Notes under the pieces: model-generated
Databases searched by the model: none
Seen by the model: the letters and a program-made list of their open reading frames with translations, nothing else
Told to the model about the DNA's origin: nothing
In this document: positions 3,971 through 62,711 of the stretch, one piece after another
Position numbering within the stretch: the stretch's first letter is position 1
How the letters are laid out: every line of letters starts with the position of its first letter
Translations under genes and position numbers: made by a program
Origin: an uncultured virus (IMG/VR IMGVR_UViG_2061766007_000322)
Lineage: Duplodnaviria > Heunggongvirae > Uroviricota > Caudoviricetes
Virus record (IMG/VR): IMGVR_UViG_2061766007_000322
Direction: 5' to 3' (one strand)
Length of the DNA stretch: 64,000 bases

Positions 3971-4595
3971 NNNNNNNNNNNNNNNNNNNNNNNNNNNNNN
4001 NNNNNNNNNNCAACAGGTGCAGTGGTTGGTACAACACATGTAATTACAAAGAAAGTTACAAAGGCTTCATTTGAGAAAAAAATTGCTGAGTTAACTAATC
4101 AGGTTGATGAACTTAGAAAAGCTGTTAATGGTGCAAAAGTCGCAGTTAAAGCTGGAGAAATTCTCACAAGTTCTGGTGGAAATAGTGGTGAACAGAAACC
4201 CGCAGAGCAGAAACCTGCAGAGCAGAAACCTGCAGAGAAACCAGCTGCATCTAACGATAATAAATCAGGTGCTGCAACACCGGCTGAACAGAAACCACAG
4301 GCTACTACGCAGGAATCTGCCGATAAGAAGAAAGGTTCTAAAATCTTAGATGCTATTAAAACAGCATTAAGATGGATCGGTGATGGTATCAAAAAGATTG
4401 GTACATTCGTATCAGGCATCTGGAATAAGTATATTGGTTCNNNNNNNNNNAACTAAACAGGCTGATGATTCTGGTGACGGTAAGTCGGATGGAAAATCTG
4501 ATAAAACTGAAACAAAACCTGAAACAAAACCTGAAACAAAGCCTGAAGAAACCAAAACCGAATCAGCAATCGATTTTCTTCTCTATTTAATCTAA
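3508..4595 (+). CDS. Putative internal head protein, paralogue B (one gene broken by two N gaps)
   Basis: ORF pieces 3508-4074, 3941-4456 and 4380-4595 align collinearly with paralogue A; frame changes coincide with the N runs. Confidence 0.6.
4191..4243 (+). repeat. 15-bp coding tandem repeat (EQKPA x3)
   Basis: GAGCAGAAACCTGCA-like units. Confidence 0.85.
4509..4546 (+). repeat. 12-bp coding tandem repeat (ETKP x3)
   Basis: GAAACAAAACCT units. Confidence 0.85.
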
Positions 4596-7290: not shown

Positions 7291-7330
7291 ATACGGTGGT
7301 GAGTTATCCACACTCACCACCGTATTTTTT
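7291..7330. terminator. Terminator between convergent genes
   Basis: ATACGGTGGTGAGT/ACTCACCACCGTAT perfect stem plus T run. Confidence 0.8.
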
Positions 7331-20592: not shown

Positions 20593-20803
20593 NNNNNNNN
20601 NNTACTAATTTACTTAAAAGGATGTGTTTACCATGTCAAAATATGAATATAATCAACTTGTTGAAAAATTTGATTTTATATGTTATAAAAATAATAAAAT
20701 CACATCCTTATAAAAAGGATGTGATTTTATAATGTTATTAAACAATTTTCGAGATACCCATTTATCAAAAGTAGAATACTAACAACATTACTATTTTGTT
20801 ATA

Positions 20804-42252: not shown

Positions 42253-43077
42253 TTGGAACCAACCTATGAATTTCAAACACTATCAGAATTCTTGAGAGAG
42301 CCTTTTGGAAAATCATATGATATGTCTAAAATTCAAAAGTTTATTGCTGGGTATCGTGAAGATAAGTATAAAATAAAATTAAACGCTCATACCAAGATTG
42401 GTAATGCGTATTACTTTCACGTAAAAATCCCTTCAAAATCTCAAGAAGAAAAAAATATGATGTATGATGTTGTTATTAAATTTTTTACTAATAAGGAAAA
42501 CTGTGAAAAATCAAGTCATATTCGTGATTACTATATTCAGTTTTTCTCTAACAGTCCAAGTTTTATTTACAACTATGCAGTACTTTACAAAAAACATGGT
42601 TTTCTTATTGATAATTTATACAATAAACTTGACCCAAGATATTTTGATAAACTACCTGAAAAAACAAATAAAGATTTAGATTTATCTTATGATAAGTCTA
42701 TATATTATGCATGTCAGTATCTTTCAGAGCATAGATTTAAAGCCCTTAATAAATTAGGAATTGCTATGGGTAAAAGCCTTACGCCAGAAGTATTTTTTAA
42801 AGAGATTAAAGATTTCCAAACCGTAAAACTTGAACAGGAATTATTTAGTCTTGAGAAAAAGGAACTTAAAAAACTTGATAGAGAGCTTGACATACGACAC
42901 AAGATGCAAGTAGGTGATAAAAAGCGAGAGCTTGATATTCATAGGAAAAATCCTTCTATGTCAACAGCTGCACATAAACGCAAAATCATAATAGGTAAGC
43001 GTTCTGCAACTACATCTACATTATCAATTAAAAGGGTCACTAAAAAAACTGCAAAAAAATCTACAAGAAAATCATAG
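42253..43077 (+). CDS. Hypothetical phage protein with basic C-terminal tail
   Basis: GAGGTG RBS with TTG start; FFSNSPSFIYNYA segment. Confidence 0.7.
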   Translation: MEPTYEFQTLSEFLREPFGKSYDMSKIQKFIAGYREDKYKIKLNAHTKIGNAYYFHVKIPSKSQEEKNMMYDVVIKFFTNKENCEKSSHIRDYYIQFFSNSPSFIYNYAVLYKKHGFLIDNLYNKLDPRYFDKLPEKTNKDLDLSYDKSIYYACQYLSEHRFKALNKLGIAMGKSLTPEVFFKEIKDFQTVKLEQELFSLEKKELKKLDRELDIRHKMQVGDKKRELDIHRKNPSMSTAAHKRKIIIGKRSATTSTLSIKRVTKKTAKKSTRKS

Positions 43078-43186
43078 ATTTAAATAGGGATGATGGATTA
43101 AATTTCATTTATTTATACATCATCCTTCTGTATATAAAGTTCAAAATATCCGATATACAAAATAAGAAAGAAAGGACTTTTACAAA

Positions 43187-44983
43187 ATGAATAATTCAGT
43201 AGATAAGGGAAGTGTAAAATCTAAAATAAACATATGGAAACCCACATCTAAAAAACAAGTTTTTGTTGAACCTGATGGAAAAATTTTCATATGTTACTTT
43301 GACAGGATATTCCAGCAACCGGAATTGTCAAAATTTAATAGATTTTACATCAAAAAAAATTCGTATGAAAATCAGCTTGATATCATAACCAAGTATATAA
43401 ATTTCTTTATCAATAACTATGATAAAGATAATGAACTGGTTAGTGCATATCTGAAGACAAAATTTGAAGTCGATGACCAAAAGACTTTCAATGAAGAAAA
43501 CATGGATAGCTATATAAGCTTTCTGTATGAAGTTATATTCACAGACACAATCATTGAGAAAATTAATCAACTTGTTGATGATAATTATCTCGATGACATT
43601 GAGGTGAATAACGAAGAGAAAAGAAAAAAGTACCAGAAAAATGAAAAGAAACATCTTGAGTCGCTTGAATTTACAAATCAGCACATCAAAATTCTTCTTC
43701 GTATATCATTCGCTATTAAAATTCTCTGCCCATGCCTTTTTCACTATCACGCTATAAATGGTATGAAGATTGAGAAGGATAGTGATAATATTTTCAGATT
43801 CTATAGACCTCTGTTTGATATTTTCGGTAAAGTAAGAAAAACTACAGATTTAGCCTATGTAGATGAAGAAAATCAATTTGTATATATCTATAATGATACA
43901 ACGAACTACTATGACAAATATGATGAAAACGGTAATTTCATTGTTGCAAACTTTAGTAATACAACAATAGAAAATGATCCTTCACTTATTATCAGTCATG
44001 CCCAAAGAACATATTTTGCTGAATATAATCTCTACAATAAGCTGTACGTATATGTAAAGGCAAAAGTAAATGAGTCATATGCAAACAACAGCCCGATATT
44101 CAATCAGCAAGAAATCTTTGGTATAGATCTGTATTCAGTTATACAGAGTTTTGTTCGTAGGGTTATTATTTCCGAAAACATTGTTAAATATAAATTTAAT
44201 AATGTTTGGGATCCAAAGCTCAAGAAGTACAAAGAAAATATTATAGGTTTTAATAAAACTATTATCAAATATCAGCTTATGTATTTCCTCAAAGAGCAGT
44301 ATAGTAAAAACCTTACAGAAGTAACAAATGTTAAAAACTCGGATGGTTTAAGTGGTCTTGACAAGCTTCTCATGAACTTATCTAAAGTTGATGAAGGTAT
44401 AACCACAATGGCTGATATCAATATACCACTTACCATAGAGTATATTAAAAAGCGTTTTGAAATCAAAATTACAGATGATGAAATCGACTACTACCTTGAT
44501 AATCATAAACCTGATGATATTCAGATATTGTTGGTAAAAAGCTACTTTGCTAAATACTTCGGAAGTTACAGAGACCTTAATCTTCTCAGAAGAAGAGATT
44601 ATATAACTCTTGTTGTTTTATTGCAGAAAAAACTTATGAGAGATTTAGGATATGAAGATGACTCCGATGGTGAAATCAGACCTGTAGCATTGCCGTATAT
44701 TATCAGTGGAAACTCAAAGGATAGAGTCAACACAAGAATTATCCGTAACATTCAGTTCACGCAAAAGGTTGAAGATAGTTACACGTTTCAGCATTTACAG
44801 GATAGTAATCATAAATATCTCAACTTTATTAAACCCGATTTTGATATCGGACTTCTATCTACTCTGATAAATACAAAATATACTTTTGTTTATTACAACA
44901 ATAAGGATTTATTAGGGCAAGAGATTAATTATTCGGACGACAAAATTGCAGACGAGGTTTTATTCTTCTTAACCTCTATCTAA
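43187..44983 (+). CDS. Probable promoter-specificity (sigma-like) subunit of the non-virion RNAP, AR9 gp226/phiKZ gp68-like
   Basis: Large helical protein two genes downstream of the chaperonin, mirroring AR9 gp228 (chaperonin) and gp226; rests mainly on synteny and size. Confidence 0.55.
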   Translation: MNNSVDKGSVKSKINIWKPTSKKQVFVEPDGKIFICYFDRIFQQPELSKFNRFYIKKNSYENQLDIITKYINFFINNYDKDNELVSAYLKTKFEVDDQKTFNEENMDSYISFLYEVIFTDTIIEKINQLVDDNYLDDIEVNNEEKRKKYQKNEKKHLESLEFTNQHIKILLRISFAIKILCPCLFHYHAINGMKIEKDSDNIFRFYRPLFDIFGKVRKTTDLAYVDEENQFVYIYNDTTNYYDKYDENGNFIVANFSNTTIENDPSLIISHAQRTYFAEYNLYNKLYVYVKAKVNESYANNSPIFNQQEIFGIDLYSVIQSFVRRVIISENIVKYKFNNVWDPKLKKYKENIIGFNKTIIKYQLMYFLKEQYSKNLTEVTNVKNSDGLSGLDKLLMNLSKVDEGITTMADINIPLTIEYIKKRFEIKITDDEIDYYLDNHKPDDIQILLVKSYFAKYFGSYRDLNLLRRRDYITLVVLLQKKLMRDLGYEDDSDGEIRPVALPYIISGNSKDRVNTRIIRNIQFTQKVEDSYTFQHLQDSNHKYLNFIKPDFDIGLLSTLINTKYTFVYYNNKDLLGQEINYSDDKIADEVLFFLTSI

Positions 44984-45060
44984 TTAATATATAAACCTGA
45001 GGGGTGCATATTACTAATATTACCCCTCCGATTTTTTTTCAAAAGAAAGGACTGTGTTTT

Positions 45061-45924
45061 ATGTTAAATTCTGAGGAAATATATGTTGTTAGTGGTGGTA
45101 CAAGTAGTCTTGACTTAGATGTTAATGCTGCTAAGAGTATTGCAATCATTAATAAAGAGAATCATAATAATAATAAAACAACATATTCATTATCATTTAT
45201 AGTATTTGCTAAAACGGATAAAGAAGCATTGAATGCTGTTAGACTTATTTTAAACTCAGATTTAAATAAAAGCAAAGGTAAATTTGAGCATGTTAGTTTT
45301 ATTCCTTATAGAATTACTAATTGTACAAATAAATCTATTGTGGATGAATTAGTATATAATCAAAATCATAATAAAACAAAATCTGATAATATTATTAGTA
45401 AACTTATGTCAAAACAACTTCCGGTTGTTTATAAAGATATTACTACAGGTTGTTATAATATATTCTATAAATACATATCACAGCTTAACAGATATAAATC
45501 GATCAAGTCTGTAAAAATATTTACTATTAATCAATGTGATACGTATAGTCATCCTGTAAATAATATAAGTATAGACGAATCTGATATTTCAAGAATGAAT
45601 TATTATTTTCCATTCAAGCACAGTGCTTTTCCTGAAATTGATGAGATTATTGATACTTATAAATTTGGAGAGTTTCAATTTGATGATTTCTTTAAAGAAG
45701 AAATTCATGACGACTTTTCAACTTCAACTCATTATATTTTTATTATCAATTCTGAATGTTCATTTGATTATTTACAGGAATTCACAGACTTTCTCAGTTC
45801 ATATTGTAAGATTAATCATTTATCTATTGATGCATTTGATGTTCTTATTAAAACGATTAATGGTGAATATATCTGCTGTATGGGTATGATGCGAAATGTA
45901 AAAAACAATTGTAAGATAATGTGA
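45061..45924 (+). CDS. Hypothetical protein
   Basis: GAAAGGA RBS supports ATG 45061. Confidence 0.65.
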   Translation: MLNSEEIYVVSGGTSSLDLDVNAAKSIAIINKENHNNNKTTYSLSFIVFAKTDKEALNAVRLILNSDLNKSKGKFEHVSFIPYRITNCTNKSIVDELVYNQNHNKTKSDNIISKLMSKQLPVVYKDITTGCYNIFYKYISQLNRYKSIKSVKIFTINQCDTYSHPVNNISIDESDISRMNYYFPFKHSAFPEIDEIIDTYKFGEFQFDDFFKEEIHDDFSTSTHYIFIINSECSFDYLQEFTDFLSSYCKINHLSIDAFDVLIKTINGEYICCMGMMRNVKNNCKIM

Positions 45925-45985
45925 TTTAAATGGGATGGTTGTATTGTATTACCATCCCATTTTAAATTAGAAAGTGTGTATTAAT

Positions 45986-46303
45986 ATGACTGACAATAGA
46001 ATTCTTTCCTTACTTCATTTAATTATAAATGATTACCGCAAAGACAATAGAGACAGAAAAATCAGGATTATTCTGACTGATAATGATTATACAATAACAT
46101 ACGTTATTCATTACTCTGAAAAGAATAGAAAGTTCTTTGATAAATTCAATGAATTATATGCTGAAGAACTTGCATTAGGCCATGTAAAAGAATATGATAA
46201 AGATGCCCAATCAAAATACATTACTATTGAAAATGTTACAATGAGTCTTAATAGTCAGGATAATTACTTGATATATCATATAGACAATAATTGTGCTGAT
46301 TAA
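45986..46303 (+). CDS. Hypothetical protein (105 aa)
   Basis: ORF; a decayed copy of its 3' end is at about 48893-48936. Confidence 0.6.
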   Translation: MTDNRILSLLHLIINDYRKDNRDRKIRIILTDNDYTITYVIHYSEKNRKFFDKFNELYAEELALGHVKEYDKDAQSKYITIENVTMSLNSQDNYLIYHIDNNCAD

Positions 46304-46354
46304 ATAAATACTGATATACGTACAATATACATATCAGCATTTTCTAAATTTATA

Positions 46355-46364
46355 TATATATTAT
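46355..46364 (+). promoter_or_regulatory. Early-type promoter motif upstream of the LRR array
   Basis: TATATATTAT plus T run. Confidence 0.65.
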
Positions 46365-46445
46365 ATTTTTGAACGTTAATAAATTGATATGTATTGGGAG
46401 GATACATATTTGATGTTCTAATCAAAACGAAAGGAAGTATTTATT

Positions 46446-47834
46446 ATGGAAGAAAATATTTTTACCGTACCTGATGGTACAACTATAATCACAAATGATA
46501 TGATACCAGATGATACTACTATTGTAATAATTCCCGAAGGAGTTACAGAGATCGGTGAGGATGCGTTTTGTGGTTATGACTCACTTAAATCCGTAGTGAT
46601 TCCTAAAGGAGTTACAAAGATCGGCAATGGTGCATTTTATGGTTGCGAATCGCTTAAATCTGTAGTAATTCCTGAAGGGGTTACAGAGATCGGTAATTGT
46701 GTGTTTTGGGGTTGCGATTCACTTAAATCTGTAGTAATTCCTAAAGGAGTTACAAAGATAGGTGAAAAGGTATTTTGTGATTGCAACTCACTTGAATCTA
46801 TAGAGATTCCTGAAGGGGTCACAGAGATCTGCAAAGGTGCGTTTTGGGCTTGCGACTCACTTAAATCTATAGTTATTCCTAAAGGAGTTACAAAGATTTG
46901 TGAGAGAGTATTTTGTTATTGCAAATCACTCGAATCTGTAGTGATTCCTGAAGGGGTCACAAAGATCGGTGTGGGTGCGTTTTGGGCTTGTGACTCGCTT
47001 AAATCTGTAGTGATTCCTAAAGGAGTTACAGAGATTGGCAATTGTGCGTTTTGTGGTTGCGACTCACTTGAATCTATAGAGCTTCCTGAAGGGGTTACAG
47101 AGATCGGTGATGGTGTATTTCGGGATTGTAAATCACTTAAATCTATAGTAATTCCTGAAGGGGTTACAGAGATTGGCGAGAGAGTATTTTGTGGTTGCGA
47201 CTTACTTAAATCTGTAATGATTCCTAAAGGAATTACAAAGATTGGTAAAGATGCGTTTTGCTGTTGCCAATTACTCGAATCTATAGAGCTTCCTGAAGGG
47301 GTTACAGAGATCGGTGAAGCTGCGTTTTGGGGTTGCGTATTGCTTAAATCTGTAGTGATTCCTGAAGGGGTCACAACGATCTGTAATAAGGTATTTTATG
47401 GTTGCGACTCACTCGAATCTGTAGTGATTCCTAAAGGAGTTACAGAGATTGGTGATGGTGTGTTTCAGGGTTGCGACTCACTTAAATCTGTAATGATTCC
47501 TGAAGGGGTTACAAAGATCGGTGTGGGTGTATTTTGTTATTGCAACTCACTCGAATCTGTAGTGATTCCTGAAGGGGTTACAGAGATCGGTGAAGCTGCG
47601 TTTTGGGGTTGCAACTCACTTAAATCTATAGTAATTCCTGAAAGTGTTACAAAGATCGGTGAGAAGGTATTTTGTTATTGCAACTCACTCGAATCTATAG
47701 TAATTCCTGAAAGTGTTACAGAGATCGGTTATAGGGCGTTTTTGGGTTGCGACTCACTTAAATATATAGATATTCCCAAAGGAGTTACAAAGATCGGTGA
47801 TGATGTATTTCTGGGTTGTGACTCGCTTAATTAG
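46446..47834 (+). CDS. BspA-family (LRR_5) leucine-rich repeat protein 1, cap plus about 18 repeats
   Basis: 23-aa SLKSVVIPEGVTEIGxxAFxxCx repeats; no signal peptide or anchor. Confidence 0.93.
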   Translation: MEENIFTVPDGTTIITNDMIPDDTTIVIIPEGVTEIGEDAFCGYDSLKSVVIPKGVTKIGNGAFYGCESLKSVVIPEGVTEIGNCVFWGCDSLKSVVIPKGVTKIGEKVFCDCNSLESIEIPEGVTEICKGAFWACDSLKSIVIPKGVTKICERVFCYCKSLESVVIPEGVTKIGVGAFWACDSLKSVVIPKGVTEIGNCAFCGCDSLESIELPEGVTEIGDGVFRDCKSLKSIVIPEGVTEIGERVFCGCDLLKSVMIPKGITKIGKDAFCCCQLLESIELPEGVTEIGEAAFWGCVLLKSVVIPEGVTTICNKVFYGCDSLESVVIPKGVTEIGDGVFQGCDSLKSVMIPEGVTKIGVGVFCYCNSLESVVIPEGVTEIGEAAFWGCNSLKSIVIPESVTKIGEKVFCYCNSLESIVIPESVTEIGYRAFLGCDSLKYIDIPKGVTKIGDDVFLGCDSLN

Positions 47835-47876
47835 ATAACAAATTTCTGAATGGACAATGATTCATAAATAAAAAAA

Positions 47877-47905
47877 GAGGCTGTACTATTGCCAAGTATA
47901 GCCTC
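47877..47905 (+). terminator. TATTGCCAA-loop hairpin without T tail
   Basis: GAGGCTGTAC-TATTGCCAA-GTATAGCCTC. Confidence 0.6.
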
Positions 47906-47933
47906 TCATTAATACAGAAAGGACGTATTTATT

Positions 47934-48770
47934 ATGAAAGAAAAAATTTTTATTGTACCTGATGGTACAACTATAATCACAAATGGTATGATACCAGACG
48001 ATACCACTATTGTAATAATTCCCGAAGGAGTTACGGAAATCGGTGAAGATGCGTTTTGTGGTTACGGCTCACTCAAATCTATAGTAATTCCTGAAGGGGT
48101 TACAAAGATCGGTGCGGGTGCGTTTTGGAGTTGCGGCTCGCTTAAATCTGTAGTGATTCCTGAAGGGGTTACGGAGATCGGTGAGAAGGCATTTTGTTAT
48201 TGCAAATCACTTAAATCTGTAGTGATTCCTGAAGGAGTTACAGAGATCACTGAGAAGGTATTTTGTGGTTGCGACTCACTTGAGTCTGTAGTAATTCCCA
48301 AAGGTGTTACAAAGATCGGTGAGGGAGCATTTAGCGGTTGTACGTCACTCAAATTTATAGAGATTCCTGAATGGGTTACGGAGATCGGTGATGATGCGTT
48401 TTGGGGTTGTGACTCTCTTAAATCTGTAGTGATTCCCGAAGGAGTTACAAAGATAGGTATGGGTGCGTTTTGGGGTTGCACGTCACTCAAATCTATAGAG
48501 ATTCCTGAAGGGGTTACAGAGATCGGTGAGGATGCGTTTTGGGGTTGCACGTCACTCAAATCTATAGAGATTCATGAAGGGGTTACCGAGATAAGTGAGA
48601 GAGTATTTTGTGATTGCAAATCACTCGAGTCTATCGTAATTCCCAAAGGAGTTACAAAAATCGGCGATGGTGCATTTAAAGGCTGTAAATCACTCAAATC
48701 TATAGTAATTCCTGAAGGGGTTACGGAGATCGGTAATGATGTATTTCTGGGTTGCGACTCTCTCAATTAA
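47934..48770 (+). CDS. BspA-family LRR protein 2, cap plus about 10 repeats
   Basis: Same cap and repeat consensus. Confidence 0.93.
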   Translation: MKEKIFIVPDGTTIITNGMIPDDTTIVIIPEGVTEIGEDAFCGYGSLKSIVIPEGVTKIGAGAFWSCGSLKSVVIPEGVTEIGEKAFCYCKSLKSVVIPEGVTEITEKVFCGCDSLESVVIPKGVTKIGEGAFSGCTSLKFIEIPEWVTEIGDDAFWGCDSLKSVVIPEGVTKIGMGAFWGCTSLKSIEIPEGVTEIGEDAFWGCTSLKSIEIHEGVTEISERVFCDCKSLESIVIPKGVTKIGDGAFKGCKSLKSIVIPEGVTEIGNDVFLGCDSLN

Positions 48771-48812
48771 ATATAAAATTTCTAAATTGACAATGATTCA
48801 TAAATAAAAAAT

Positions 48813-48850
48813 GAGGTTGTACTATTGCCAAGTACAACCTCTTTTTTATT
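48813..48850 (+). terminator. TATTGCCAA-loop terminator
   Basis: GAGGTTGTAC-TATTGCCAA-GTACAACCTC plus T run. Confidence 0.75.
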
Positions 48851-48996
48851 TTTATTTCGTAGATTACACATTTATAATCCAATACGTTCTATCGAAAATA
48901 TTACAATGAGTTTTAATAGTCATTGTGCTGATTAAATAGAAATGTATTGAGCAATATATATTTGATGTTCTAATCAAAATGAAAGGAAGTAATATT

Positions 48997-50563
48997 GTGG
49001 AAGAAAAAATTTTTAATATACAATCAGGTACAACTATAATCACAAAAGGTATGGTACCAGACGATACTACTATTGTAATAATTCCTGAAGGGGTTGCGGA
49101 GATCTGTGAAGATGCGTTTTGGGGTTGCGACTCGCTTAAATCTGTAGTAATTCCCAAAGGGGTTACAAAGATCAGCGATGGNNNNNNNNNNAGAAATCGG
49201 TAGGAAGGTATTTTGTGGTTGCGATTCACTCGAGTCTATCGTAATTCCCAAAGGAGTTACAAAGATCGGTGTGGGGGCATTTAGCGGTTGTACGTCACTC
49301 AAATCTATAGAGATTCCTGAAGGGGTTACAGAGATATGTATGGGTGCGTTTTGTGATTGCAAATCACTCGAATCTATAGAGATTCCTAAAGGAGTTACAG
49401 AGATCGGTGAGGATGCGTTTCGGGAGTGTACATCGCTTAAATCTGTAGTAATTCCCAAAGGGGTTACAAAGATCAGCGATGGTGCATTTTATGGTTGCGA
49501 CTCGCTTAAATCTGTAATGATTCCTGAAGGGGTTACGGAGATCGGCGAGAGGGTATTTTGTGATTGCAAATCACTCGAGTCTATAGTAATTCCCAAAGGA
49601 GTTACAAAGATATGTGACGGTGCATTTAAAGGATGTAAATCACTCAAATCTATAGTAATTCCTGAAGAGGTTACGGAGATCGGTGAGGGTGCATTTTACG
49701 ATTGTGACTCACTTAAATCTATAGTGATTCCCGAAGGAGTTACAAAGATCTGTAAGGAAGCGTTTTGGCATTGTAAATCGCTTAAATCTGTAGTGATTCC
49801 TGAAGGGGTTACGGAGATCGGTGAGGATGCGTTTTGGCATTGCACATCGCTTAAATCTGTAGTGATTCCTGAAGGGGTTACAGAGATCGGCGAGCGTGCG
49901 TTTTGGCATTGCACATCGCTTAAATCTGTAGTGATTTCTGAAGGAGTTACAGAGATCGGTGAGTATGCGTTTTCCTGTTGTACGTCGCTTAAATCTATAG
50001 AGATTCCCGAAGGAGTTACAAAGATTGGTGTGGGTGTGTTTTGGCATTGCACATCGCTTAAATCTATAGAGATTCCCGAAGGGGTTACAGAGATCGGTGA
50101 GCGTGCGTTTTGTGGTTGTGTGTCGCTTAAATCTATAGAGATTCCTGAAGGGGTTACAAAGATCGGTGAGCGTGCGTTTCAAGAGTGTATGTCACTTGAA
50201 TCTGTAGTGATTCCTGAAGGGGTTACAGAGATCGGTAAATATGCGTTTTGCTGTTGTAAGTCGCTTAAATCTATAGAGATTTCCGAAGGGGTTACAGAGA
50301 TCAGTGCGTATGTGTTTTTCTGTTGTACGTCGCTTAAATCTATAGTAATTCCTGAAGGAGTTACAAAGATTGGTGTGGGTGTGTTTTGGGGTTGTACGTC
50401 GCTTGAATCTGTAGTACTTCCTGAAGGGGTTACAGAGATTGGTGAGGGAGCGTTTCGAGAGTGTACGTCGCTTAAATCTGTAATGATTCCTGAAGTAGTG
50501 ATTCCAGAAGGGGTTACAAAGATATGTGAGGATGTGTTTCTGGGTTGCGACTCACACAATTAG
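48997..50563 (+). CDS. BspA-family LRR protein 3, about 20 or more repeats (N gap near 49182-49191)
   Basis: GTG start after AAAGGA; same cap; frame break coincides with the N gap. Confidence 0.85.
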
Positions 50564-50604
50564 ATATCAAATTTCTGAATTGACAACTATTTATAAATAA
50601 AAAT

Positions 50605-50642
50605 GAGGCTGTACTTGGCAATAGTACAGCCTCATTTTTTTA
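50605..50642 (+). terminator. Same hairpin family with inverted loop
   Basis: GAGGCTGTAC-TTGGCAATA-GTACAGCCTC plus T run. Confidence 0.75.
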
Positions 50643-50696
50643 TTTTTATTTCATAGATTACACATTTATAATCCAAAATGATAAAGGTGATAAAAA

Positions 50697-51752
50697 ATGA
50701 ATAAAGATACAAAAGAAGCGTTTATAGACGCATTAATGTCAAGACCTGGTATTTATACAAAAAAGGTTAACGACAATGAATATAGAACAAGATGTCCTTT
50801 ATGTGGTGATTCTAAAAAGAATGAAAATACAGGACATATGTATATAAAAGTAAATGTAAACGATAACTCTCCAATTCAATTTCATTGTTTTCTTTGTGAA
50901 GAAGGTGGAGTATTAAAACCATCAATGTTGTCAATGCTCGAAATAGATGATATTAATTTAAAATCATCATTAACTGTTTTAAATAAGTCTGCAGATAAAA
51001 TTGATAAAAAAGGAATAATTGATGGTGGGACTTTAAAAATTTTTGATTATGAACTTCCCGAAATAAAACGGTCAGATAAAACTAAATATATAGAAAATCG
51101 TCTTGGAATTAAATTACCAGATTCTGCATTTAAAAAGATGAAAGTAATTACATCATTAAGAGAATTTCTTATTCATAACAAGATAAAAAAACTTACATGC
51201 TCTGATAAAATAGCATATAATATAGAGAAGAATTATGTGGGATTCTTATCATATGGAAACTCACATATTTTATTCCGTGACATTACAGAAAAACAAGAAA
51301 TATCTTGGTTTAAATATCCTATAACAAAAGATAGTTCTGTTAATAGAATATTCTATTCTATGGACGCTGAAATTGATTTATTTACTTCTGATGAAATTAT
51401 AATAAATATTGCAGAAGGAGTTATGGATACAATATCAGCACATTATAATCTTGGATATGATGGAGAAAATGTTCTTAACTTATGTGTATCTGGAAGATAT
51501 TATAGTAGCTTAATTCTATTTTTAATATCCATGGGTTTTATTGGTAGTAATATTACAATAAATATTTTTGCTGATAATGATTATATGTTCAATAACAAGA
51601 ATAATGTAAATACTACAACACTTGGATATTATAAAAAGATATTATCTGATTATAAACATCTCTTTGGAAAAATATATGTCTGGTATAACTTAAAGAGTAA
51701 AGACATAGGAGTTCCAAGAGATATGATAGAACTTAAAAAATATATTATATAA
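50697..51752 (+). CDS. DNA primase (DnaG/T4 gp61-like)
   Basis: RCPLCGDS...HCFLC Zn finger; TOPRIM motifs AEGVMD, ADND, KDIG. Confidence 0.85.
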   Translation: MNKDTKEAFIDALMSRPGIYTKKVNDNEYRTRCPLCGDSKKNENTGHMYIKVNVNDNSPIQFHCFLCEEGGVLKPSMLSMLEIDDINLKSSLTVLNKSADKIDKKGIIDGGTLKIFDYELPEIKRSDKTKYIENRLGIKLPDSAFKKMKVITSLREFLIHNKIKKLTCSDKIAYNIEKNYVGFLSYGNSHILFRDITEKQEISWFKYPITKDSSVNRIFYSMDAEIDLFTSDEIIINIAEGVMDTISAHYNLGYDGENVLNLCVSGRYYSSLILFLISMGFIGSNITINIFADNDYMFNNKNNVNTTTLGYYKKILSDYKHLFGKIYVWYNLKSKDIGVPRDMIELKKYII

Positions 51753-51769
51753 AGCGAGGAAAATAAAAT

Positions 51770-52300
51770 ATGAAATACTATGTAAATGCTTATGTTAAAA
51801 TCGACCATGTTAAAAATGGAAATAGGAAAGTTTTTCGAGCACCTACCACAGGTACACAAATTTATGGATTTGATAATCTCGAAAAGCACATTAGATTATT
51901 ATGCAAAACCAGTAGTAAAACCTTTAGAAACGCACTAATTTGTGATGATAATGACTGTGTAATTGAAAGTATGCATAATGATGAAAACAGATATGATTAT
52001 GTAAAGCATATTAATAATACAGAAATATCTCCATTAGAAAAATTATTTCTTGAATTATTTTATAATGATAAGAGAACTTCTGACACAGCATTATCTACAT
52101 ATGACGAAATAGAAAAGTTTCTTGATAGTAGGAATTTACATGCTAAACCTATAGAAATAAAATCATTTGTTTCCGCAGTTTATCCATGCCTTTTGGGTAA
52201 TGATTATAAATTTATGCTTTTAAAAGAAACAAAAGATTTTTATACATTAGAATTAGAAAATAGTGGATGGATATTTAAAAGATTAAATGTATATAGATAA
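51770..52300 (+). CDS. Hypothetical protein
   Basis: GAGG RBS. Confidence 0.65.
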   Translation: MKYYVNAYVKIDHVKNGNRKVFRAPTTGTQIYGFDNLEKHIRLLCKTSSKTFRNALICDDNDCVIESMHNDENRYDYVKHINNTEISPLEKLFLELFYNDKRTSDTALSTYDEIEKFLDSRNLHAKPIEIKSFVSAVYPCLLGNDYKFMLLKETKDFYTLELENSGWIFKRLNVYR

Positions 52301-52368
52301 AATGAAGAACGTGATAACTACATATTATCACGTTCTTATTGATTATCAGTATTTTATATATAGATATT

Positions 52369-52378
52369 TATATATTAT
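52369..52378 (+). promoter_or_regulatory. Early-type promoter motif
   Basis: TATATATTAT. Confidence 0.65.
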
Positions 52379-52388
52379 TTTTGTAGTA

Positions 52389-52502
52389 AATGAGAGATGC
52401 TTATATAAGGCGTTTATATCTCTCATTACATATTATGGTCCGTACAGCCAGTAAATGTACCACCCATGCTCGGGTGACTGGACGAAAGTCTGGGGAAAGG
52501 AG
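52389..52502 (+). ncRNA. Candidate structured 5' leader (hairpin plus pseudoknot-like element)
   Basis: GC-rich island with complementary pairs GTACA/TGTAC, CCAGT/ACTGG, CACCC/GGGTG and a GAAA tetraloop hairpin before the RBS. Confidence 0.35.
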
Positions 52503-52507
52503 CATTT

Positions 52508-52891
52508 ATGACAAATGAAATTAAAACAGATGGAACGTCAGTTGATCTCGTGTTCTCAGCTTTTGCAGCACTCAAGCATCTTCATAGTATGTTTAACACA
52601 GTCTCAGAAACAGCACGTCCGGAAGCTGAGTGGCTTGAAAACGATGTTGTAAGAAAAGTGATCCGTATATCAATATCAACAGCTGTAGAAGAAGCAAACT
52701 GCATATCAAAAGAGATAAAGGCTGCAATTGACAAACTTCAGACGGCGAGTGTCTTGAATGAAAATGAAGAGGATAGTATGAGAGAAGCACTGATGCACAT
52801 ATCAGCAGAGGTAGAATTCATTAAAAACCAGCTTATCAATAAACAAACAATGATTCATGAAATTGATGTATACTATGACGAAACTGAATAA
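52508..52891 (+). CDS. Hypothetical early helical protein (127 aa)
   Basis: AAAGGAG RBS. Confidence 0.75.
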   Translation: MTNEIKTDGTSVDLVFSAFAALKHLHSMFNTVSETARPEAEWLENDVVRKVIRISISTAVEEANCISKEIKAAIDKLQTASVLNENEEDSMREALMHISAEVEFIKNQLINKQTMIHEIDVYYDETE

Positions 52892-52914
52892 CGAGCATAG
52901 CAATCTGATCACAG

Positions 52915-52960
52915 CAGAACTCGGCATCGACACTCAAGTTGGTGTCGGGTTCTTTTTTTA
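52915..52960 (+). terminator. Intrinsic terminator
   Basis: AGAACTCGGCATCGAC/GTTGGTGTCGGGTTCT stem with G-U pairs plus T run. Confidence 0.75.
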
Positions 52961-53012
52961 TTATTTTTTAGCTAACTTAGTAATAAACTATTATTAAGGA
53001 GGCTTTTTAATT

Positions 53013-54290
53013 ATGCTTTATGAAATTATAAGTAAAGATGAAACCCCGATTTCACAAATGCATATCTATTTGAAAAACAAAACTAATGATGATGGTGGAA
53101 ATCTTCCTGAGATATTACATGATTTAGCTGTTGCAGAAAGTGTTAATCCTCTTTACGCATTTGCTGTATATTGTGTAATTACTGATAATATTACAAAAGA
53201 ACCGAAAAATGCTAATAAATATCCTACAAAAGAAGTTATGCTATTAGCGTTTATCCAATATCTTAAAGGTATGGCAACTACTATTGGGTTAAATAAAAAA
53301 CAGGTGAGTATATTATATGACAATCTTAAAGAATCGCAGCTTATTGGTCATTCACCAACTCTATTAAATCTTGATGGTGATTTATTCACATCACATTATG
53401 ATAATAATAAATACTATAGTAAAGAGGCTGCAGATGAGGCAGAGGATTCATTTCCGTATTGGGTAATAAATATAGTTAAAGAAATAAAAAATAGTAATGA
53501 ACTTATTACGCCAAAAAAGAATGTTGTATATGAACTTCCCTATTATATCCAGAATATTTCTGGTACTTCTATACCCATTTATGATTCATTAGATAAAGAA
53601 AAAAGAAATGTAATTGGTAATATTCCACCAACTGGTCTTGAACCTGTATTCAAAATTGAAAGAAACTGTGCAAGATTACTTTCATCCGTGTATGCATATG
53701 TTGATTTAAATGACAAAATGATTATTCCTGTAAAACATCTTGAAGATTATTCTGAACTCGAATTGGCTAATGTTGATGAAGTTATATTCCCTAAATTACC
53801 ATTTGATATAATTGTAAAAGATTCTATTATTGGTAGGTATGGAATTAATAATCACTATAATACAGATGGTGACCATGAATATAAAACAGATGATAAAATA
53901 TGTATAATAAACGTATATATGAATACGTATGGTGTTACTGAAGATGGATTTTTTATTCCATTTGACTTTTCGCATATAAAATTCTATGAAGAGCAAAAAA
54001 TAGAAGAGTCTGTATCTATTTCTCAGGAACATACAAAACTGACAGATGGTTTTAATGTTAAAGAAAGATATGTAGTATGTGTAAAATGTACAAATGAACA
54101 GACAAAAATTAAAACATTAGATATACTCAGAAAACATGTAAAAGAAACAGAACCATATGTATATGAAAATACAATGGGTATATTTGTTATTATAGGTTCA
54201 TATAACACATTCGATAAAGCATGTTCAATGAGAAAATCATCTCTTAAATTTGGTTGTAAAGCATCTATTATTGATACAGAAAATTTATAA
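53013..54290 (+). CDS. Protein with C-terminal SPOR-like peptidoglycan-binding domain and possible degenerate SH3-like modules
   Basis: C-terminal YVVCV...FVIIGSYNTFDKA...GCKASII pattern. Confidence 0.45.
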   Translation: MLYEIISKDETPISQMHIYLKNKTNDDGGNLPEILHDLAVAESVNPLYAFAVYCVITDNITKEPKNANKYPTKEVMLLAFIQYLKGMATTIGLNKKQVSILYDNLKESQLIGHSPTLLNLDGDLFTSHYDNNKYYSKEAADEAEDSFPYWVINIVKEIKNSNELITPKKNVVYELPYYIQNISGTSIPIYDSLDKEKRNVIGNIPPTGLEPVFKIERNCARLLSSVYAYVDLNDKMIIPVKHLEDYSELELANVDEVIFPKLPFDIIVKDSIIGRYGINNHYNTDGDHEYKTDDKICIINVYMNTYGVTEDGFFIPFDFSHIKFYEEQKIEESVSISQEHTKLTDGFNVKERYVVCVKCTNEQTKIKTLDILRKHVKETEPYVYENTMGIFVIIGSYNTFDKACSMRKSSLKFGCKASIIDTENL

Positions 54291-54296
54291 AAAATA

Positions 54297-54337
54297 TAGA
54301 TAGAGCAATAGTATATTTTATCTATTGCTCTATCTAT
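54297..54337. terminator. Hairpin between convergent genes
   Basis: TAGATAGAGCAATAG/CTATTGCTCTATCTA stem. Confidence 0.75.
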
Positions 54338-60824: not shown

Positions 60825-62711
60825 TTATTCTTCATCATCAAATTCATCTTCATCAGGTAAGTCTTCACTATATACAAGATCATCAACATTACCTTTTTTC
60901 TTCTTCTTTCTTTTAAGCATATTAGATGCTGCAGAAGCTTCGGATTCGGTATCATCATTGTCTATTTCATCTTCAACAACTACTTCACAATGACCCTCTT
61001 TTGAAGTACCGTATACCTTAATATCAAGATTGCTTGTTTGAAGTGTCATTATAGCATCATAAAAATCTGATTCAGAGTCGAAATCAAGTTTTATATACTG
61101 CACACCTTTTTTCTTAAGAATCTCCGCAAGATCTTTTTGAAACTCATACATGAAATTATCTTTTTCAGGACTATCATCAAAATAAGCACCTTTGATTTTA
61201 CCATATGGTGTTAGCAAACCAGATGTTCCTGGGTCAGAGTTTCCGCACACAAGTATATCAAGATTTCCAAGAAATGATGGGTGAATTCCTCTATATTTAA
61301 GCCCAATATTATTAGCATTTTTACCTCCAAGTGAATGTGGTCCCTTGTTAGTAAATTTGAACTTAGAAAAGAATGTCATATCATTAACCGCCTCGTCAAA
61401 TCTGAGAATACCAGAATTATGCATTTTCTGAATAAGAATATCACCAGAAAATCTGAAAAACTCTCTGTAGTTATCAATTGTTGCTTTTTCACCAAGAGAA
61501 ATAATTCTATTAAGCCTTGATGAGAATTCCAAAGTAAGAAGTGATGAAATAACTTCATTACAACGAAGCCTCTTATTCTTAAGAGAAAGATTATCTTTAG
61601 TTCTGAGGAACGTAAATTCTTGACACATCCAACGAAGAACTGTATATATATCCTGTCTATGATAAGGATGTGTTTTAACTATCTTCTTTGTGGTTTCATC
61701 AAGAAGTCGTCCAAGAAAATTAAGAGTTGATTCACCTTTTTCGTAGTTGTTTGTACCAGAAATTTTCTTAATCCAAACTTTCGGATCGTCAAACGATGCT
61801 ATTGTTGTTCGATTATTGCATACATGAAGAATACCACCAACAATGGATTGAAGATAAATATACTTATTAAAAAGTGTCCTATTTACTGAAAGAAAACACT
61901 TATTAGAAATAGGAAAGTATATTGTATCTGGTTCATGAATGTCAGGAAGTTTCTCAAGAAGTTCAATGGCACCGTTTACACCAAGAAAGTCCATAGCACT
62001 ACGGAATCCATCCTTAAGATAGAAAAGAATAACTGGAACTTCTTTCTTGAATACAAATACGTTATAGTATGGAAGTGTGTATTGTTTACCATAACAATCT
62101 TCAATATTCACATTATCAGATTCCATCTTTTCGTCTGTAAGTGGTGTATCTTCAATATCATCTTTAACATCAATTTCGTTAATACCTGTACTTTCAAGAA
62201 TACCTCTTTTAACAGCAACCGGCATAAGAGATTTAAGAGTAACACTCTGATTTGATGTGTACGTAGATTTTTCCACCATCTGGTAAATAAGATAATACTT
62301 CTTTCCATGGATGTAATAATAACCTTTTTCATCTTGAATAGGAATAAGCATTTCTTTCTTTACAGGATAAACATGCTTGTACATCTCTCCAGTGTGTTCA
62401 TTCTTTTCCATAAGATGAATTTCAAGATGTACTGTAAGTTTACCAAAACGGTCATCTGCGATAAACTTATAATCCTTTTTATCCCTTTTCTTCTTTTTCT
62501 TTTCACGCTTGAAAATATACTTGTTGACATCTATATCATATTCGTTGGTGTCAAATTCATAACCAATAAACTTAATATTAGGTACAACTTCAAGCGATTT
62601 CCATGAGTCAACTATATAGTCTACAAGTGGGGCATCAAAATCTTTGGTCATAAGACCTGAATTGAGCCTTGGCTCAAATTCACTTGGGTAATCATGAATC
62701 AGTGATATCAT
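60825..62711 (-). CDS. Phage RNA polymerase beta-like subunit, N-terminal half (non-virion RNAP)
   Basis: IPIQDEKGYYYIHGKKYYLIYQ (beta region B-like); RGIHPSFLGNLDI...SDPGTSGLL (like RDVHPTHYGRVCP...PNIGL); acidic tail. Confidence 0.85.
   Translation of the reverse strand: MISLIHDYPSEFEPRLNSGLMTKDFDAPLVDYIVDSWKSLEVVPNIKFIGYEFDTNEYDIDVNKYIFKREKKKKKRDKKDYKFIADDRFGKLTVHLEIHLMEKNEHTGEMYKHVYPVKKEMLIPIQDEKGYYYIHGKKYYLIYQMVEKSTYTSNQSVTLKSLMPVAVKRGILESTGINEIDVKDDIEDTPLTDEKMESDNVNIEDCYGKQYTLPYYNVFVFKKEVPVILFYLKDGFRSAMDFLGVNGAIELLEKLPDIHEPDTIYFPISNKCFLSVNRTLFNKYIYLQSIVGGILHVCNNRTTIASFDDPKVWIKKISGTNNYEKGESTLNFLGRLLDETTKKIVKTHPYHRQDIYTVLRWMCQEFTFLRTKDNLSLKNKRLRCNEVISSLLTLEFSSRLNRIISLGEKATIDNYREFFRFSGDILIQKMHNSGILRFDEAVNDMTFFSKFKFTNKGPHSLGGKNANNIGLKYRGIHPSFLGNLDILVCGNSDPGTSGLLTPYGKIKGAYFDDSPEKDNFMYEFQKDLAEILKKKGVQYIKLDFDSESDFYDAIMTLQTSNLDIKVYGTSKEGHCEVVVEDEIDNDDTESEASAASNMLKRKKKKKGNVDDLVYSEDLPDEDEFDDEE

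What the first reader, a model, noticed from the sequence alone, without database searches (positions are those of the whole stretch)
46300..50680. Phage-encoded array of anchorless, module-diversified LRR proteins: candidate variable binder repertoire
Seen: three tandem genes share an N-cap (xPDGTTIITxxMIPDDTTIVIIPEGV) and C-cap (DVFLGCDSxN). Between the caps sit about 18, 10 and 20 or more copies of a 69-bp module. The framework (SL[KE]S[VI]xIP[EK]GVT[EK]I) is almost invariant at DNA level, while a few fixed positions ([GCST]-x-x-[AV]F-x-x-C-x) vary freely and are rich in Cys, Trp and Tyr. There is no signal peptide, TM helix or wall anchor, and the locus follows an early-type promoter. Known: BspA/LRR_5 proteins are usually surface adhesins of bacteria and protists; lamprey VLRs obtain binding diversity by assembling LRR modules. 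Inference: this is an early, cytoplasmic, recombination-diversified binding repertoire, for example against host defence proteins or competing phages.
Basis: partly seen in the sequence, partly recalled or inferred. Interest (0 to 1): 0.82.

Follow-up and report, generated by a model that had tools for sequence, protein, structure and literature searches.

The report
Tandem LRR genes in rumen jumbo phage
An uncultured giant phage from ruminant guts carries three neighbouring genes for soluble leucine-rich-repeat proteins behind an early-type promoter, but their pattern of variation is the normal one for this protein family and shows no special diversity-generating mechanism.

Summary
Three tandem genes (46446-47834, 47934-48770, 48997-50563) are strong Pfam LRR_5 (BspA/TpLRR-type) hits built from 23-aa/69-bp modules (19, 11 and at least 21-22), with shared caps and no export or anchor signal. 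They lie in a low-GC, AR9-like jumbo phage found in ruminant gut metagenomes.

Two points fail. The framework is not near-invariant at DNA level (mean module identity 77%, framework pS 0.35). The third gene holds a 10-N scaffold gap, and short-read contigs break up inside the array in all four runs laid, so module number and order are unverified.

Five positions (10, 11, 14, 15, 17) are hypervariable, with dN/dS 1.21 (bootstrap 0.88-1.66). The same five are the variable ones in 27 unrelated LRR_5 proteins (Spearman 0.81), and they lie outside the beta-strands of the predicted solenoid.

g1 sits 91 nt behind a motif matching the published AR9 virion-RNA-polymerase early promoter; g2 and g3 have none. 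A distant relative lacks the whole 5.7-kb stretch; another carries dispersed LRR_5 genes.

Best reading: an accessory family of early-made, cytoplasmic LRR binders, diversified by ordinary duplication and recombination. The target is unknown. The scan flagged similar phage LRR families before on other DNA.

The parts
45004..50680 (+). Accessory stretch between the RNAP-like gene (43187-44983) and the primase (50697-51752). It holds two ORFs of unknown function (45004-45924, 45974-46303) and the LRR cassettes.
   Evidence: In the distant relative L002 the homologues of the RNAP-like gene and the primase are adjacent, 164 bp apart, with nothing between them. GC3 of the LRR genes is 0.29-0.36, against 0.226 +/- 0.072 for 58 other ORFs.
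46355..46371 (+). Early (virion-RNAP type) promoter-like motif TATATATTAT-ATTTTT-G, 91 nt before the g1 start.
   Evidence: and the AR9 consensus in PMC5312081. No copy within 2 mismatches lies before g2 or g3.
46406..46427 (+). Leader ATATTTGATGTTCTAATCAAAA, which contains the dyad TTTGAT/ATCAAA and is followed by the RBS GAAAGGAAG. This is copy 1; copy 2 is at 48958-48979 before g3.
   Evidence: There are exactly two matches in the window, against 0.02 expected. Predicted RNA structure is weak: z -2.06 for g1 and -0.61 for g3.
46446..47834 (+). g1: 462-aa LRR_5 protein with a 28-aa N-cap, 18 full modules and a 20-aa terminal module.
47877..47905 (+). Degenerate copy of the cassette terminator hairpin. 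It has one stem mismatch and no T-run, so read-through into g2 is likely.
   Evidence: The RNA fold gives -18.8 kcal/mol, z -4.39. The terminator scan did not call it.
47934..48770 (+). g2: 278-aa LRR_5 protein with an N-cap, 10 full modules and a terminal module.
   Evidence: The AlphaFold2 model has pLDDT 96.1 and pTM 0.90.
48813..48841 (+). Intrinsic-terminator-like hairpin after g2 (11-bp stem followed by a T-run).
48997..49181 (+). g3 5' part: GTG start homologous to the g1 ATG, N-cap, 1 full module and 11 residues of a second module, running into the gap.
49182..49191 (.). 10-N scaffold gap of unknown true length. It may hide further modules or a gene boundary.
   Evidence: In run X1, contigs at single-copy depth show junctions that are absent from the window.
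49193..50563 (+). g3 3' part: partial module, 18 full modules, a 15-bp (IPEVV) insertion at 50486-50500, and a terminal module ending DSHN.
50599..50639 (+). Terminator-like hairpin after g3 (17 pairs). Its loop is inverted relative to the copies after g1 and g2.

Best explanation
The locus is a small paralogous family of soluble LRR_5 (TpLRR/BspA-class) beta-solenoid proteins. It sits in an accessory stretch of an AR9-like jumbo phage of ruminant gut bacteria.

Proposed mechanism:
- g1, and by read-through g2, is transcribed by the injected virion RNA polymerase from an early promoter.
- The proteins have no export signal, so they stay in the infected cell's cytoplasm.
- There they act as binding scaffolds for host or competitor macromolecules, in host take-over or counter-defence.
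- The differences between the genes arose by ordinary whole-cassette duplication (promoter/leader, gene, terminator).
- Modules were then gained and lost by unequal recombination between 69-bp units.
- Five surface positions of the 'variable segment' evolved near-neutrally or under weak positive selection, while the framework was kept by purifying selection.

Shown: family membership, fold, tandem cassette structure, absence of hydrophobic export or anchor segments, the promoter motif, the accessory status of the stretch, and the selection pattern.

Inferred: early transcription (by analogy with AR9), cytoplasmic action, binding function, and the kind of target.
For: - Family and fold: LRR_5 at E 1e-120 to 1e-165. 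PDB sequence hits are 4fs7 (1.8e-63), 4gt6, 4h09, 6mlx (TpLRR) and 4cp6 (PcpA). The model has pLDDT 96.1, and Foldseek's top hits are the same entries.
- Phage context: PHROG and Pfam hits to split RNAP subunits, divergent PolB, GroEL, primase and helicase. The best RNAP beta' matches are Bacillus (BpSp, AR9, PBS1) and Staphylococcus jumbo phages at 24-27% identity.
- Early promoter: the motif is enriched at 13 vs 2.25 expected, and 7 vs 0.31 with the 6N-G extension. Ten of its 13 copies are intergenic. It matches the AR9 early consensus (PMC5312081).
- Cassette duplication: the leader occurs only at 46406 and 48958. The hairpin core occurs only after the three genes. Caps and UTRs are 83-92% identical between genes.
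- No export signal.
- Selection: framework dN/dS is 0.23 (0.19-0.28); the five variable positions give 1.21 (0.88-1.66).
- Accessory status: L002 lacks the stretch. The complete 292-kb relative G001 has 9 LRR_5 matches in at least 5 dispersed ORFs, while G002 has none.
- Real in nature: 20 of 24 listed runs, from 13 studies, hold part of the stretch. Flanks are 97-100% alike in the four runs laid.
Against: - No expression data: no listed run holding the stretch is on record as RNA.
- g2 has no promoter motif. g3 has none either and follows an intact terminator, so its timing is unknown.
- The promoter assignment rests on analogy with a phage whose RNAP is only about 27% identical.
- Lack of a signal peptide is also expected for virion proteins.
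- LRR domains in other jumbo phages are linked to virion or host-recognition proteins (Goslar preprint 10.64898/2026.04.21.720040, passages). A Klebsiella phage hit is annotated as a tail protein.
- The LRR ORFs of G001 carry extra N-terminal regions, unlike these genes.
- No target is known, and PADLOC gave nothing.
- The interior of the array is not confirmed by any contig longer than about 460 nt.
Confidence: 0.45

Rival explanations
1. The proteins are virion-associated adhesins: fibre, decoration or host-recognition proteins displayed on the particle. This is how LRR domains are read in other giant phages.
For: - Goslar virion-linked DUF7941 proteins carry LRR/beta-helix domains (preprint passages).
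- A Klebsiella phage tblastn hit lies under a 'tail protein' annotation.
- Solved LRR_5 relatives are annotated as cell-surface proteins or adhesins (4gt6, 4fdw, PcpA).
- Virion proteins need no signal peptide.
Against: - There is only a 28-aa LRR cap and no N-terminal attachment domain.
- The genes sit between an RNAP-like gene and the primase, not in a structural block.
- g1 has an early-type promoter.
- The only structural hit in the window, a head-tail joining protein, is about 38 kb away at 7330-8529.
Confidence: 0.2
2. The proteins are packaged in the capsid and injected with the DNA, like internal proteins, so that the binders act before any phage gene is expressed.
For: Only a lead from an earlier AI note on another phage (e1-5856917). 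AR9-like phages do package proteins such as the virion RNAP (PMC5312081).
Against: - No recognisable targeting or cleavage leader was identified here; the N-terminus is an LRR cap.
- An early promoter would be unnecessary for a packaged protein.
- This reading was not tested further.
Confidence: 0.08
3. The locus is a programmed diversity-generating system. It would work either by VLR-like cassette assembly or by DGR-like targeted mutagenesis, producing variable binders within a phage population.
For: - Module numbers differ between paralogues (19, 11 and at least 21) and collinearity is lost.
- Many alternative junctions appear in short-read contigs of four runs.
- Among the 20 strain differences listed inside the array, 5 of the 7 in-module non-synonymous ones fall at positions 10, 11 or 14. 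This is a subset of 235 differences and cross-mapping is possible.
Against: - No reverse transcriptase, deaminase or recombinase hit among the 55 ORFs scanned in the 64-kb window.
- Synonymous divergence between modules is 0.35-0.43, so the modules are old.
- The variable positions are the family-wide ones and lie off the beta-sheet face.
- dN/dS is not significantly above 1.
- The array holds 150 repeated 31-mers, which is enough to tangle a short-read graph.
Confidence: 0.04
4. The array as written is partly an assembly artefact: the genes are real, but the order and number of modules, and even the number of genes, are wrong.
For: - There is a 10-N gap inside g3.
- In the likely source run X1, long contigs stop at 46400 and resume at 50360, and only 190-420-nt pieces lie between them.
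- Junctions at about single-copy depth are absent from the window, for example 46756 to 47866 with 5 extra letters at depth 31.2 against a flank depth of about 32.
Against: - The short X1 pieces match the window with 0 differences.
- A 458-nt contig from an independent study (X5) spans the end of g1 and the start of g2 with 3 differences.
- All ORFs are open, with regular caps.
Confidence: 0.35

Closest known systems
BspA / TpLRR-class LRR proteins (Pfam LRR_5, PF13306; solved examples 4fs7, 4gt6, 4h09, 6mlx TpLRR, 4cp6 PcpA)
   Same: - The same 23-residue repeat, IPxGVTxIGxxAFxxCxSLxSxx.
- The same predicted solenoid fold.
- The same five variable positions per repeat.
   Different: - No signal peptide, lipobox, anchor or extra domain.
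- Encoded by a lytic-type jumbo phage behind an early-type promoter.
- The framework is more uniform than in controls, and Cys/Trp are enriched at position 14: W+C in 28 of 44 modules vs 29 of 222 in controls.
Phage LRR families of unknown function: phrog_35892 and phrog_18805, and LRR-annotated proteins of uncultured gut phages in BFVD/GenBank
   Same: - Strong profile hits (E 4.9e-119 and 3.8e-82 for g1).
- tblastn hits in 55 phage records, often with several places per record.
- Foldseek hits to uncultured Caudovirales LRR proteins.
   Different: - None is above 60% identical.
- None of the 120 listed homologues shares the N-cap.
- None of the 55 matched records is a cultured Bacillus or Staphylococcus AR9-like phage.
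- No function is known for any of them.
Expanded LRR/FNIP repeat gene families of giant eukaryotic viruses (CroV Crov588, mimivirus F-box/FNIP proteins; PMC9525666, abstract seen in the listing)
   Same: - Large viruses carrying many paralogous, anchorless LRR solenoid genes of unknown target.
- The best viral structural hit is a Mimiviridae ChoanoV1 LRR protein (41% identity, TMq 0.78).
   Different: - Most belong to a different repeat class (FGxxFN).
- Their hosts are eukaryotes.
- They are often fused to F-box domains, and no such domain is present here.
Lamprey variable lymphocyte receptors
   Same: LRR modules of fixed framework with variable residues, and modules that vary in number.
   Different: - VLR diversity lies on the concave beta-sheet and is made by somatic cassette copying with a cytidine deaminase (recalled knowledge, not from a call).
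- Here the variable residues lie outside the strands.
- No donor cassettes or deaminase were found.
- The modules are old.

Membership tests
Pfam LRR_5 (BspA-type LRR) family | Score above the curated Pfam gathering threshold (27.7 bits) | tested here: met
   489, 395 and 541 bits for g1, g2 and the g3 3' part.
Pfam LRR_5 (BspA-type LRR) family | A repeat of about 23 residues with the consensus IPxxVxxIGxxAFxxCxxLxSIxI | tested here: met
   47 full modules were segmented. The consensus of a 35-sequence alignment is the same.
Pfam LRR_5 (BspA-type LRR) family | Solenoid fold like solved LRR_5 structures | tested here: met
   The model has pLDDT 96.1. Foldseek gives 4gt6 (9.8e-15), 4fs7 (1.4e-14, TMq 0.75), 4h09, 4cp6 and 6mlx.
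BspA-like surface adhesins (functional class) | Export signal and surface anchoring (signal peptide or lipobox, plus TM, wall anchor, choline-binding or other anchoring domain) | tested here: not met
   No hydrophobic N-terminal or TM-like segment by a crude Kyte-Doolittle rule. Pfam finds only LRR-type families above threshold. No dedicated signal-peptide predictor was available.
AR9-type virion-RNAP early transcription unit | Promoter matching AAATATATATTAT-(6N)-G upstream of the gene | tested here: met
   g1 has ATATATATATTAT-ATTTTT-G at 46352-46371. The motif is enriched in the window, and the consensus comes from PMC5312081. It is met for g1 only, not for g2 or g3.
AR9-type virion-RNAP early transcription unit | Transcript present early and independent of protein synthesis | not testable with these tools
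   No listed run holding the stretch is on record as RNA.
VLR-like assembled LRR receptor | Diversity concentrated on the concave beta-sheet face | tested here: not met
   DSSP strands of the model fall at module positions 21-23 and 7-8. The hypervariable positions are 10, 11, 14, 15 and 17. Coordinates could not be inspected, so exposure is inferred from secondary structure.
VLR-like assembled LRR receptor | Silent donor cassettes and a deaminase or recombination enzyme | tested here: not met
   No LRR sequence lies elsewhere in the window. No deaminase hit among the 55 ORFs scanned. The rest of the phage genome is not available.
Diversity-generating retroelement target | Reverse transcriptase and template repeat nearby | tested here: not met
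   No RT family among the 55 ORFs scanned in 64 kb. The rest of the genome was not seen.
Jumbo-phage virion LRR fibre or host-recognition proteins | N-terminal virion-attachment module (e.g. DUF7941) or large multi-domain fibre architecture | tested here: not met
   There are only 28 aa before the first module and 0 aa after the last, and no other Pfam domain.

The most novel reading that the evidence does not exclude
The genes are a previously unrecognised class of early, cytoplasmic phage effectors. In this reading, free LRR_5 solenoids expressed from a virion-RNAP promoter bind and neutralise host defence or takeover targets. The phage keeps several paralogues, with different module numbers and surface residues, as an arms-race repertoire. 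The Cys/Trp-rich ladder at position 14, with a CxC motif in 14 of 47 modules, could form the binding or metal-binding surface.
Probability: 0.2. Interest if true: 0.7.

Novelty: new member of a known kind. Interest (0 to 1): 0.38.

Why it matters
LRR_5 proteins are abundant in gut and rumen phage contigs, and none has a known role. This locus offers a compact, testable case. It has three small soluble paralogues, a recognisable early promoter of the AR9 type, and clear accessory status.

If the proteins act inside the host early in infection, LRR solenoids would join the classes of phage host-takeover or counter-defence proteins. The many phage 'BspA-like surface protein' annotations would then need to be read differently.

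If they are virion adhesins instead, they are ordinary.

Tried and rejected
- **Nucleotide search of phages.** Searching 43000-54300 against the phage collection gave no match.
- **Relatives via flanking genes.** In viral contigs each flank gave only one distant locus, at 37% and 30% identity. The primase found no relative in metagenome contigs.
- **N-cap 20-mer.** Zero matches in viral contigs and in metagenome contigs. No assembled close relative was therefore available to compare module number or order.
- **Whole genome.** None is held for this window.
- **RNA evidence.** No RNA holder was listed among the sequencing runs.
- **Contig cover.** Parts of the array without long-contig cover in the four laid runs are not taken as absence.
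- **Collinear blocks between genes.** None was found. The best 3-module runs are 0.83-0.87 identical, against a background of 0.77.
- **Coupling of V12 with C14.** Not significant (Fisher p = 0.097).
- **PADLOC.** Scanning the three LRR proteins and the two neighbouring ORFs gave one hit at E 0.0091, treated as noise.
- **Earlier-notes lookup with the leader sequence.** Nothing found, so the leader here is not shown to be the element described in note e1-5658411.
- **RNA structure of the leader.** Weak (z -2.06 and -0.61).
- **Literature searches.** Four searches were run: BspA + phage + leucine-rich repeat; leucine-rich repeat + jumbo phage; LRR/bacteriophage/rumen/virome/leucine-rich; TpLRR + leucine-rich repeat + concave. 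None found a paper describing early-expressed anchorless LRR_5 gene arrays in AR9-like phages.

Full report
**1. What is there**

The window is AT-rich, with 25-36% GC per 2-kb bin outside the locus. It encodes hallmarks of a phiKZ/AR9-type jumbo phage:
- split multisubunit RNA-polymerase subunits (phrog_2987/3015, PF00623);
- a divergent family B DNA polymerase (PF20286);
- a GroEL-like chaperonin, a primase (phrog_19847) and a helicase;
- a head-tail joining protein and a guanylate kinase.

The RNAP beta'-like protein finds Bacillus phages BpSp, AR9 and PBS1 and Staphylococcus jumbo phages as its best-covering matches, at 24-27% identity. No whole genome is held for the window.

Between an RNAP-like gene (43187-44983) and the primase (50697-51752) lie two ORFs of unknown function, followed by three same-strand LRR genes:
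- g1, 46446-47834;
- g2, 47934-48770;
- g3, 48997-50563.

No further LRR sequence occurs elsewhere in the 64 kb.

**2. Check of the observation**

All three genes hit Pfam LRR_5 at E 1e-120 to 1e-165. TRF reports 69-bp arrays of 19.0, 10.9 and 18.3 copies.

Segmented by hand:
- g1 has a 28-aa cap, 18 full 23-aa modules and a 20-aa terminal module.
- g2 has the cap, 10 full modules and a terminal module.
- g3 has the cap, one full module and 11 residues of the next. A run of 10 N follows (49182-49191). After it come the last 17 residues of a module, 18 full modules, a 15-bp insertion and the terminal module.

g3's N-cap is the most diverged.

The gap is a scaffold join of unknown length. The sequences on its two sides cannot be the same module, so g3 has at least 21-22 modules if it is one gene. 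It could also be two genes.

**3. Variation between modules**

These figures come from 47 full modules.
- Mean pairwise nucleotide identity is 0.767, with a maximum of 0.942. It is almost the same within genes (0.776) and between genes (0.763).
- Five positions (10, 11, 14, 15, 17) carry 2.3-2.5 bits of amino-acid entropy. The other 18 carry 0-1.3 bits.
- Framework codons have pS 0.35 and pN 0.10. Their Jukes-Cantor dN/dS is 0.23 (bootstrap 0.19-0.28).
- The five variable codons have pS 0.43 and pN 0.49. Their dN/dS is 1.21 (bootstrap 0.88-1.66).

So the framework is held by purifying selection at the protein level and is not 'almost invariant at DNA level'. The modules are old. The variable sites evolve about as fast as synonymous sites, which fits unconstrained surface positions or mild positive selection and cannot separate the two.

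**4. Control against the family**

I extracted 222 modules from 27 unrelated LRR_5 proteins, taken from the 32 non-window rows of alignment A2 and keeping those with at least 6 modules.
- The same five positions are the most variable within those proteins (mean within-protein entropy 1.9-2.5 bits).
- The entropy profiles correlate with Spearman 0.81.

Two things are particular here:
- The semi-variable positions (3, 4, 6, 7, 18, 20, 21) are much more uniform than in controls.
- Position 14 is dominated by Trp and Cys (28 of 44 modules, against 29 of 222 in controls), giving a CxC motif in 14 of 47 modules.

Tyr is not enriched.

**5. Structure**

AlphaFold2 on g2 with a 35-row alignment gives pLDDT 96.1 and pTM 0.90.
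- Foldseek finds the solved LRR_5 proteins first: 4gt6, 4fs7, 4h09, PcpA (4cp6) and TpLRR (6mlx).
- In the viral library it finds a Mimiviridae ChoanoV1 LRR protein (41% identity, TMq 0.78) and many uncultured-phage LRR proteins.
- DSSP places the strands at module positions 21-23 and 7-8.
- The hypervariable positions 10-17 fall in the non-strand 'variable segment', not on the concave sheet that canonical LRR receptors and VLRs use. That role of the concave sheet is recalled knowledge, not from a call.

I could not read coordinates, so exposure is inferred and not computed.

**6. Cassette anatomy and expression signals**

- *Terminators.* Each gene is followed by a related 3' region with the hairpin core GAGGYTGTACT, which occurs nowhere else in the window.
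  - After g1 the hairpin has a mismatch and no T-run.
  - After g2 and g3 it is an intact terminator-like site.
- *Leader.* g1 and g3 share a 22-nt leader found only at these two places. It precedes the RBS.
- *Identity of the ends.* Caps and UTRs are 83-92% identical between genes.
- *Interior.* No collinear block of modules exceeds about 0.87 identity.

This points to moderately old whole-cassette duplication, followed by module gain, loss and divergence.

*The promoter motif.*
- The motif TATATATTAT occurs 13 times against 2.25 expected. With the 6N-G extension it occurs 7 times against 0.31 expected.
- Ten of the 13 copies are intergenic, typically 50-140 nt before a gene.
- It matches the AR9 early promoter consensus AAATATATATTAT-(6N)-G(+1), which that study showed to be used by the injected virion RNAP without new protein synthesis (PMC5312081; passages read).
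- One copy lies 91 nt before g1. There is none within 2 mismatches before g2 or g3.

By analogy, g1, and probably g2 by read-through, is early. The timing of g3 is open.

**7. Localisation signals**

A crude hydropathy scan finds no signal-peptide-like or TM-like segment, and the proteins are acidic.

Anchorless relatives are common. By the same crude rule, 71 of the 120 listed homologues lack such segments. Only 4 of 120 are LRR-only, and none shares this N-cap. Some of the 120 may be partial sequences.

**8. Relatives and population data**

The protein family is very large: 7434 of 7999 scored candidates reach E <= 1e-10, and the best are 49-61% identical.

No close relative of the phage was found in the collections searched. 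Two distant jumbo-phage contigs were informative:
- In L002 the RNAP-like gene and the primase are adjacent, so the 5.7-kb stretch is accessory.
- The complete 292-kb record G001 has 9 LRR_5 matches in at least five dispersed ORFs. The two ORFs I looked at carry additional N-terminal regions.
- G002, which is 79% complete, has none.

The LRR genes have higher GC3 (0.29-0.36) than the other 58 ORFs (0.226 +/- 0.072) and a shifted codon choice. This is compatible with horizontal acquisition, but repeats are not independent samples.

Public runs:
- 20 of 24 listed rows, from 13 studies and mostly bovine or sheep gut, hold part of the stretch.
- I laid four of them, from four studies. The flanks are covered at 97-100% identity.
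- The array is covered only by 150-460-nt contigs in every run, including the likely source X1. X1's long contigs end at 46400 and restart at 50360.
- Several junctions occur that the window lacks, some at single-copy depth.
- The array contains 150 repeated 31-mers, which is enough to explain graph tangles.

The genes are therefore real and recur in independent samples. The interior order, the module counts and the gene count are not verified, and real structural heterogeneity can be neither shown nor excluded.

Of the 20 differences listed inside the array (out of 235 in all), 11 are synonymous. Five of the 7 in-module non-synonymous ones fall at positions 10, 11 or 14. This is a small, selected subset and cross-mapping is possible.

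**9. Interpretation**

The best-supported reading is an accessory family of soluble LRR_5 solenoids. At least g1 is made early from a virion-RNAP promoter, and the proteins act as binders in the infected cell. They diversified by ordinary duplication, unequal recombination and relaxed or weakly positive selection on the family's usual variable segment.

- The target and the 'anti-defence' role are speculation, and PADLOC gave nothing.
- The main rival is a virion-associated adhesin role, which is how LRR domains are read in Goslar (preprint passages) and in a Klebsiella phage annotation. Against it stand the absence of any attachment domain, the genomic position and the early promoter.
- A programmed VLR- or DGR-like mechanism is unlikely: no RT or deaminase in 55 scanned ORFs, old modules, and variable sites off the sheet.

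**10. Novelty**

- LRR_5 proteins in phages are already catalogued (phrog_35892 and phrog_18805, both of unknown function; UniProt entries).
- Expanded LRR families are known in giant eukaryotic viruses (PMC9525666, abstract in the listing; PMC12592517, passages).
- Earlier AI notes of this scan flagged LRR gene families in other giant gut and rumen phages several times. These notes were used as leads only.
- The literature searches found no paper on early-promoter, anchorless LRR_5 arrays in AR9-like phages.

This is a new member of a known kind, with one useful twist, the early promoter, that makes an intracellular role testable.

Noticed in passing
window 8621, 9451, 11278, 16339, 22065, 35076, 37030, 40718(-), 42699, 46355, 52369, 60766(-), 62764(-): A strongly enriched motif, tTATATATTATtTTTtG (13 found vs 2.25 expected), matches the AR9 virion-RNAP early promoter consensus. 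It marks candidate early genes of this uncultured phage, including the 1185-aa RNAP beta'-like gene at 16445 and the polymerase-like gene at 60825-62711(-).
   Followed up: partly
window 50599-50639 vs 47877-47905 and 48813-48841: The terminator hairpin after g3 has the same stem as those after g1 and g2, but its 7-nt loop is the reverse complement (TGGCAAT vs ATTGCCA). It looks as if the hairpin had been inverted.
   Followed up: no
window 46311-46338: An inverted repeat, CTGATAT...ATATCAG, lies just after the stop of ORF 45974-46303 and just before the g1 promoter motif. The roughly 75-nt segment holding both is missing from the otherwise homologous region upstream of g3 (alignment A1). g3 therefore looks like a promoter-less copy of the cassette.
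   Followed up: partly
window 46530-47300 (g1 modules 1-9): In the first half of g1, Glu and Lys alternate from module to module at positions 3 and 7, and less strictly at position 20. Module identity is higher at lag 2 (0.803) than at lag 1 (0.754). Together these indicate a 46-residue super-repeat and possibly salt-bridge ladders.
   Followed up: no
window 3970-4010, 4441-4450, 20593-20602: Three further N runs (41, 10 and 10 bases) show that the window is a scaffold and not a finished sequence.
   Followed up: no
L003 604-2964 and L005 1219-1998 (record G001): Two LRR_5 proteins of a 292-kb relative share an N-terminal motif (…KF.P..LEKFHP.EG…) and a C-terminal motif (VNYTGTEE.WNAI…ATKVYNY). 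The larger one has WEDGTTDP-containing repeats before the LRR block. This architecture looks more like a displayed or attached protein than the genes studied here.
   Followed up: partly
proteins P0008, P0014, P0023, P0036, P0060, P0062: This group of LRR_5 homologues shares a conserved N-terminal domain of about 170 aa (starting MKYIRTYETEEKF…) and a C-terminal tail ending …GWTIVEDL. The contigs that carry them are up to 185 kb long, so this may be another phage-borne LRR family.
   Followed up: no
window 45004-45924 and 45974-46303: Two ORFs in the same accessory stretch as the LRR genes have no Pfam, PHROG or PADLOC hit. They are absent between the RNAP-like gene and the primase in L002.
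   Followed up: partly
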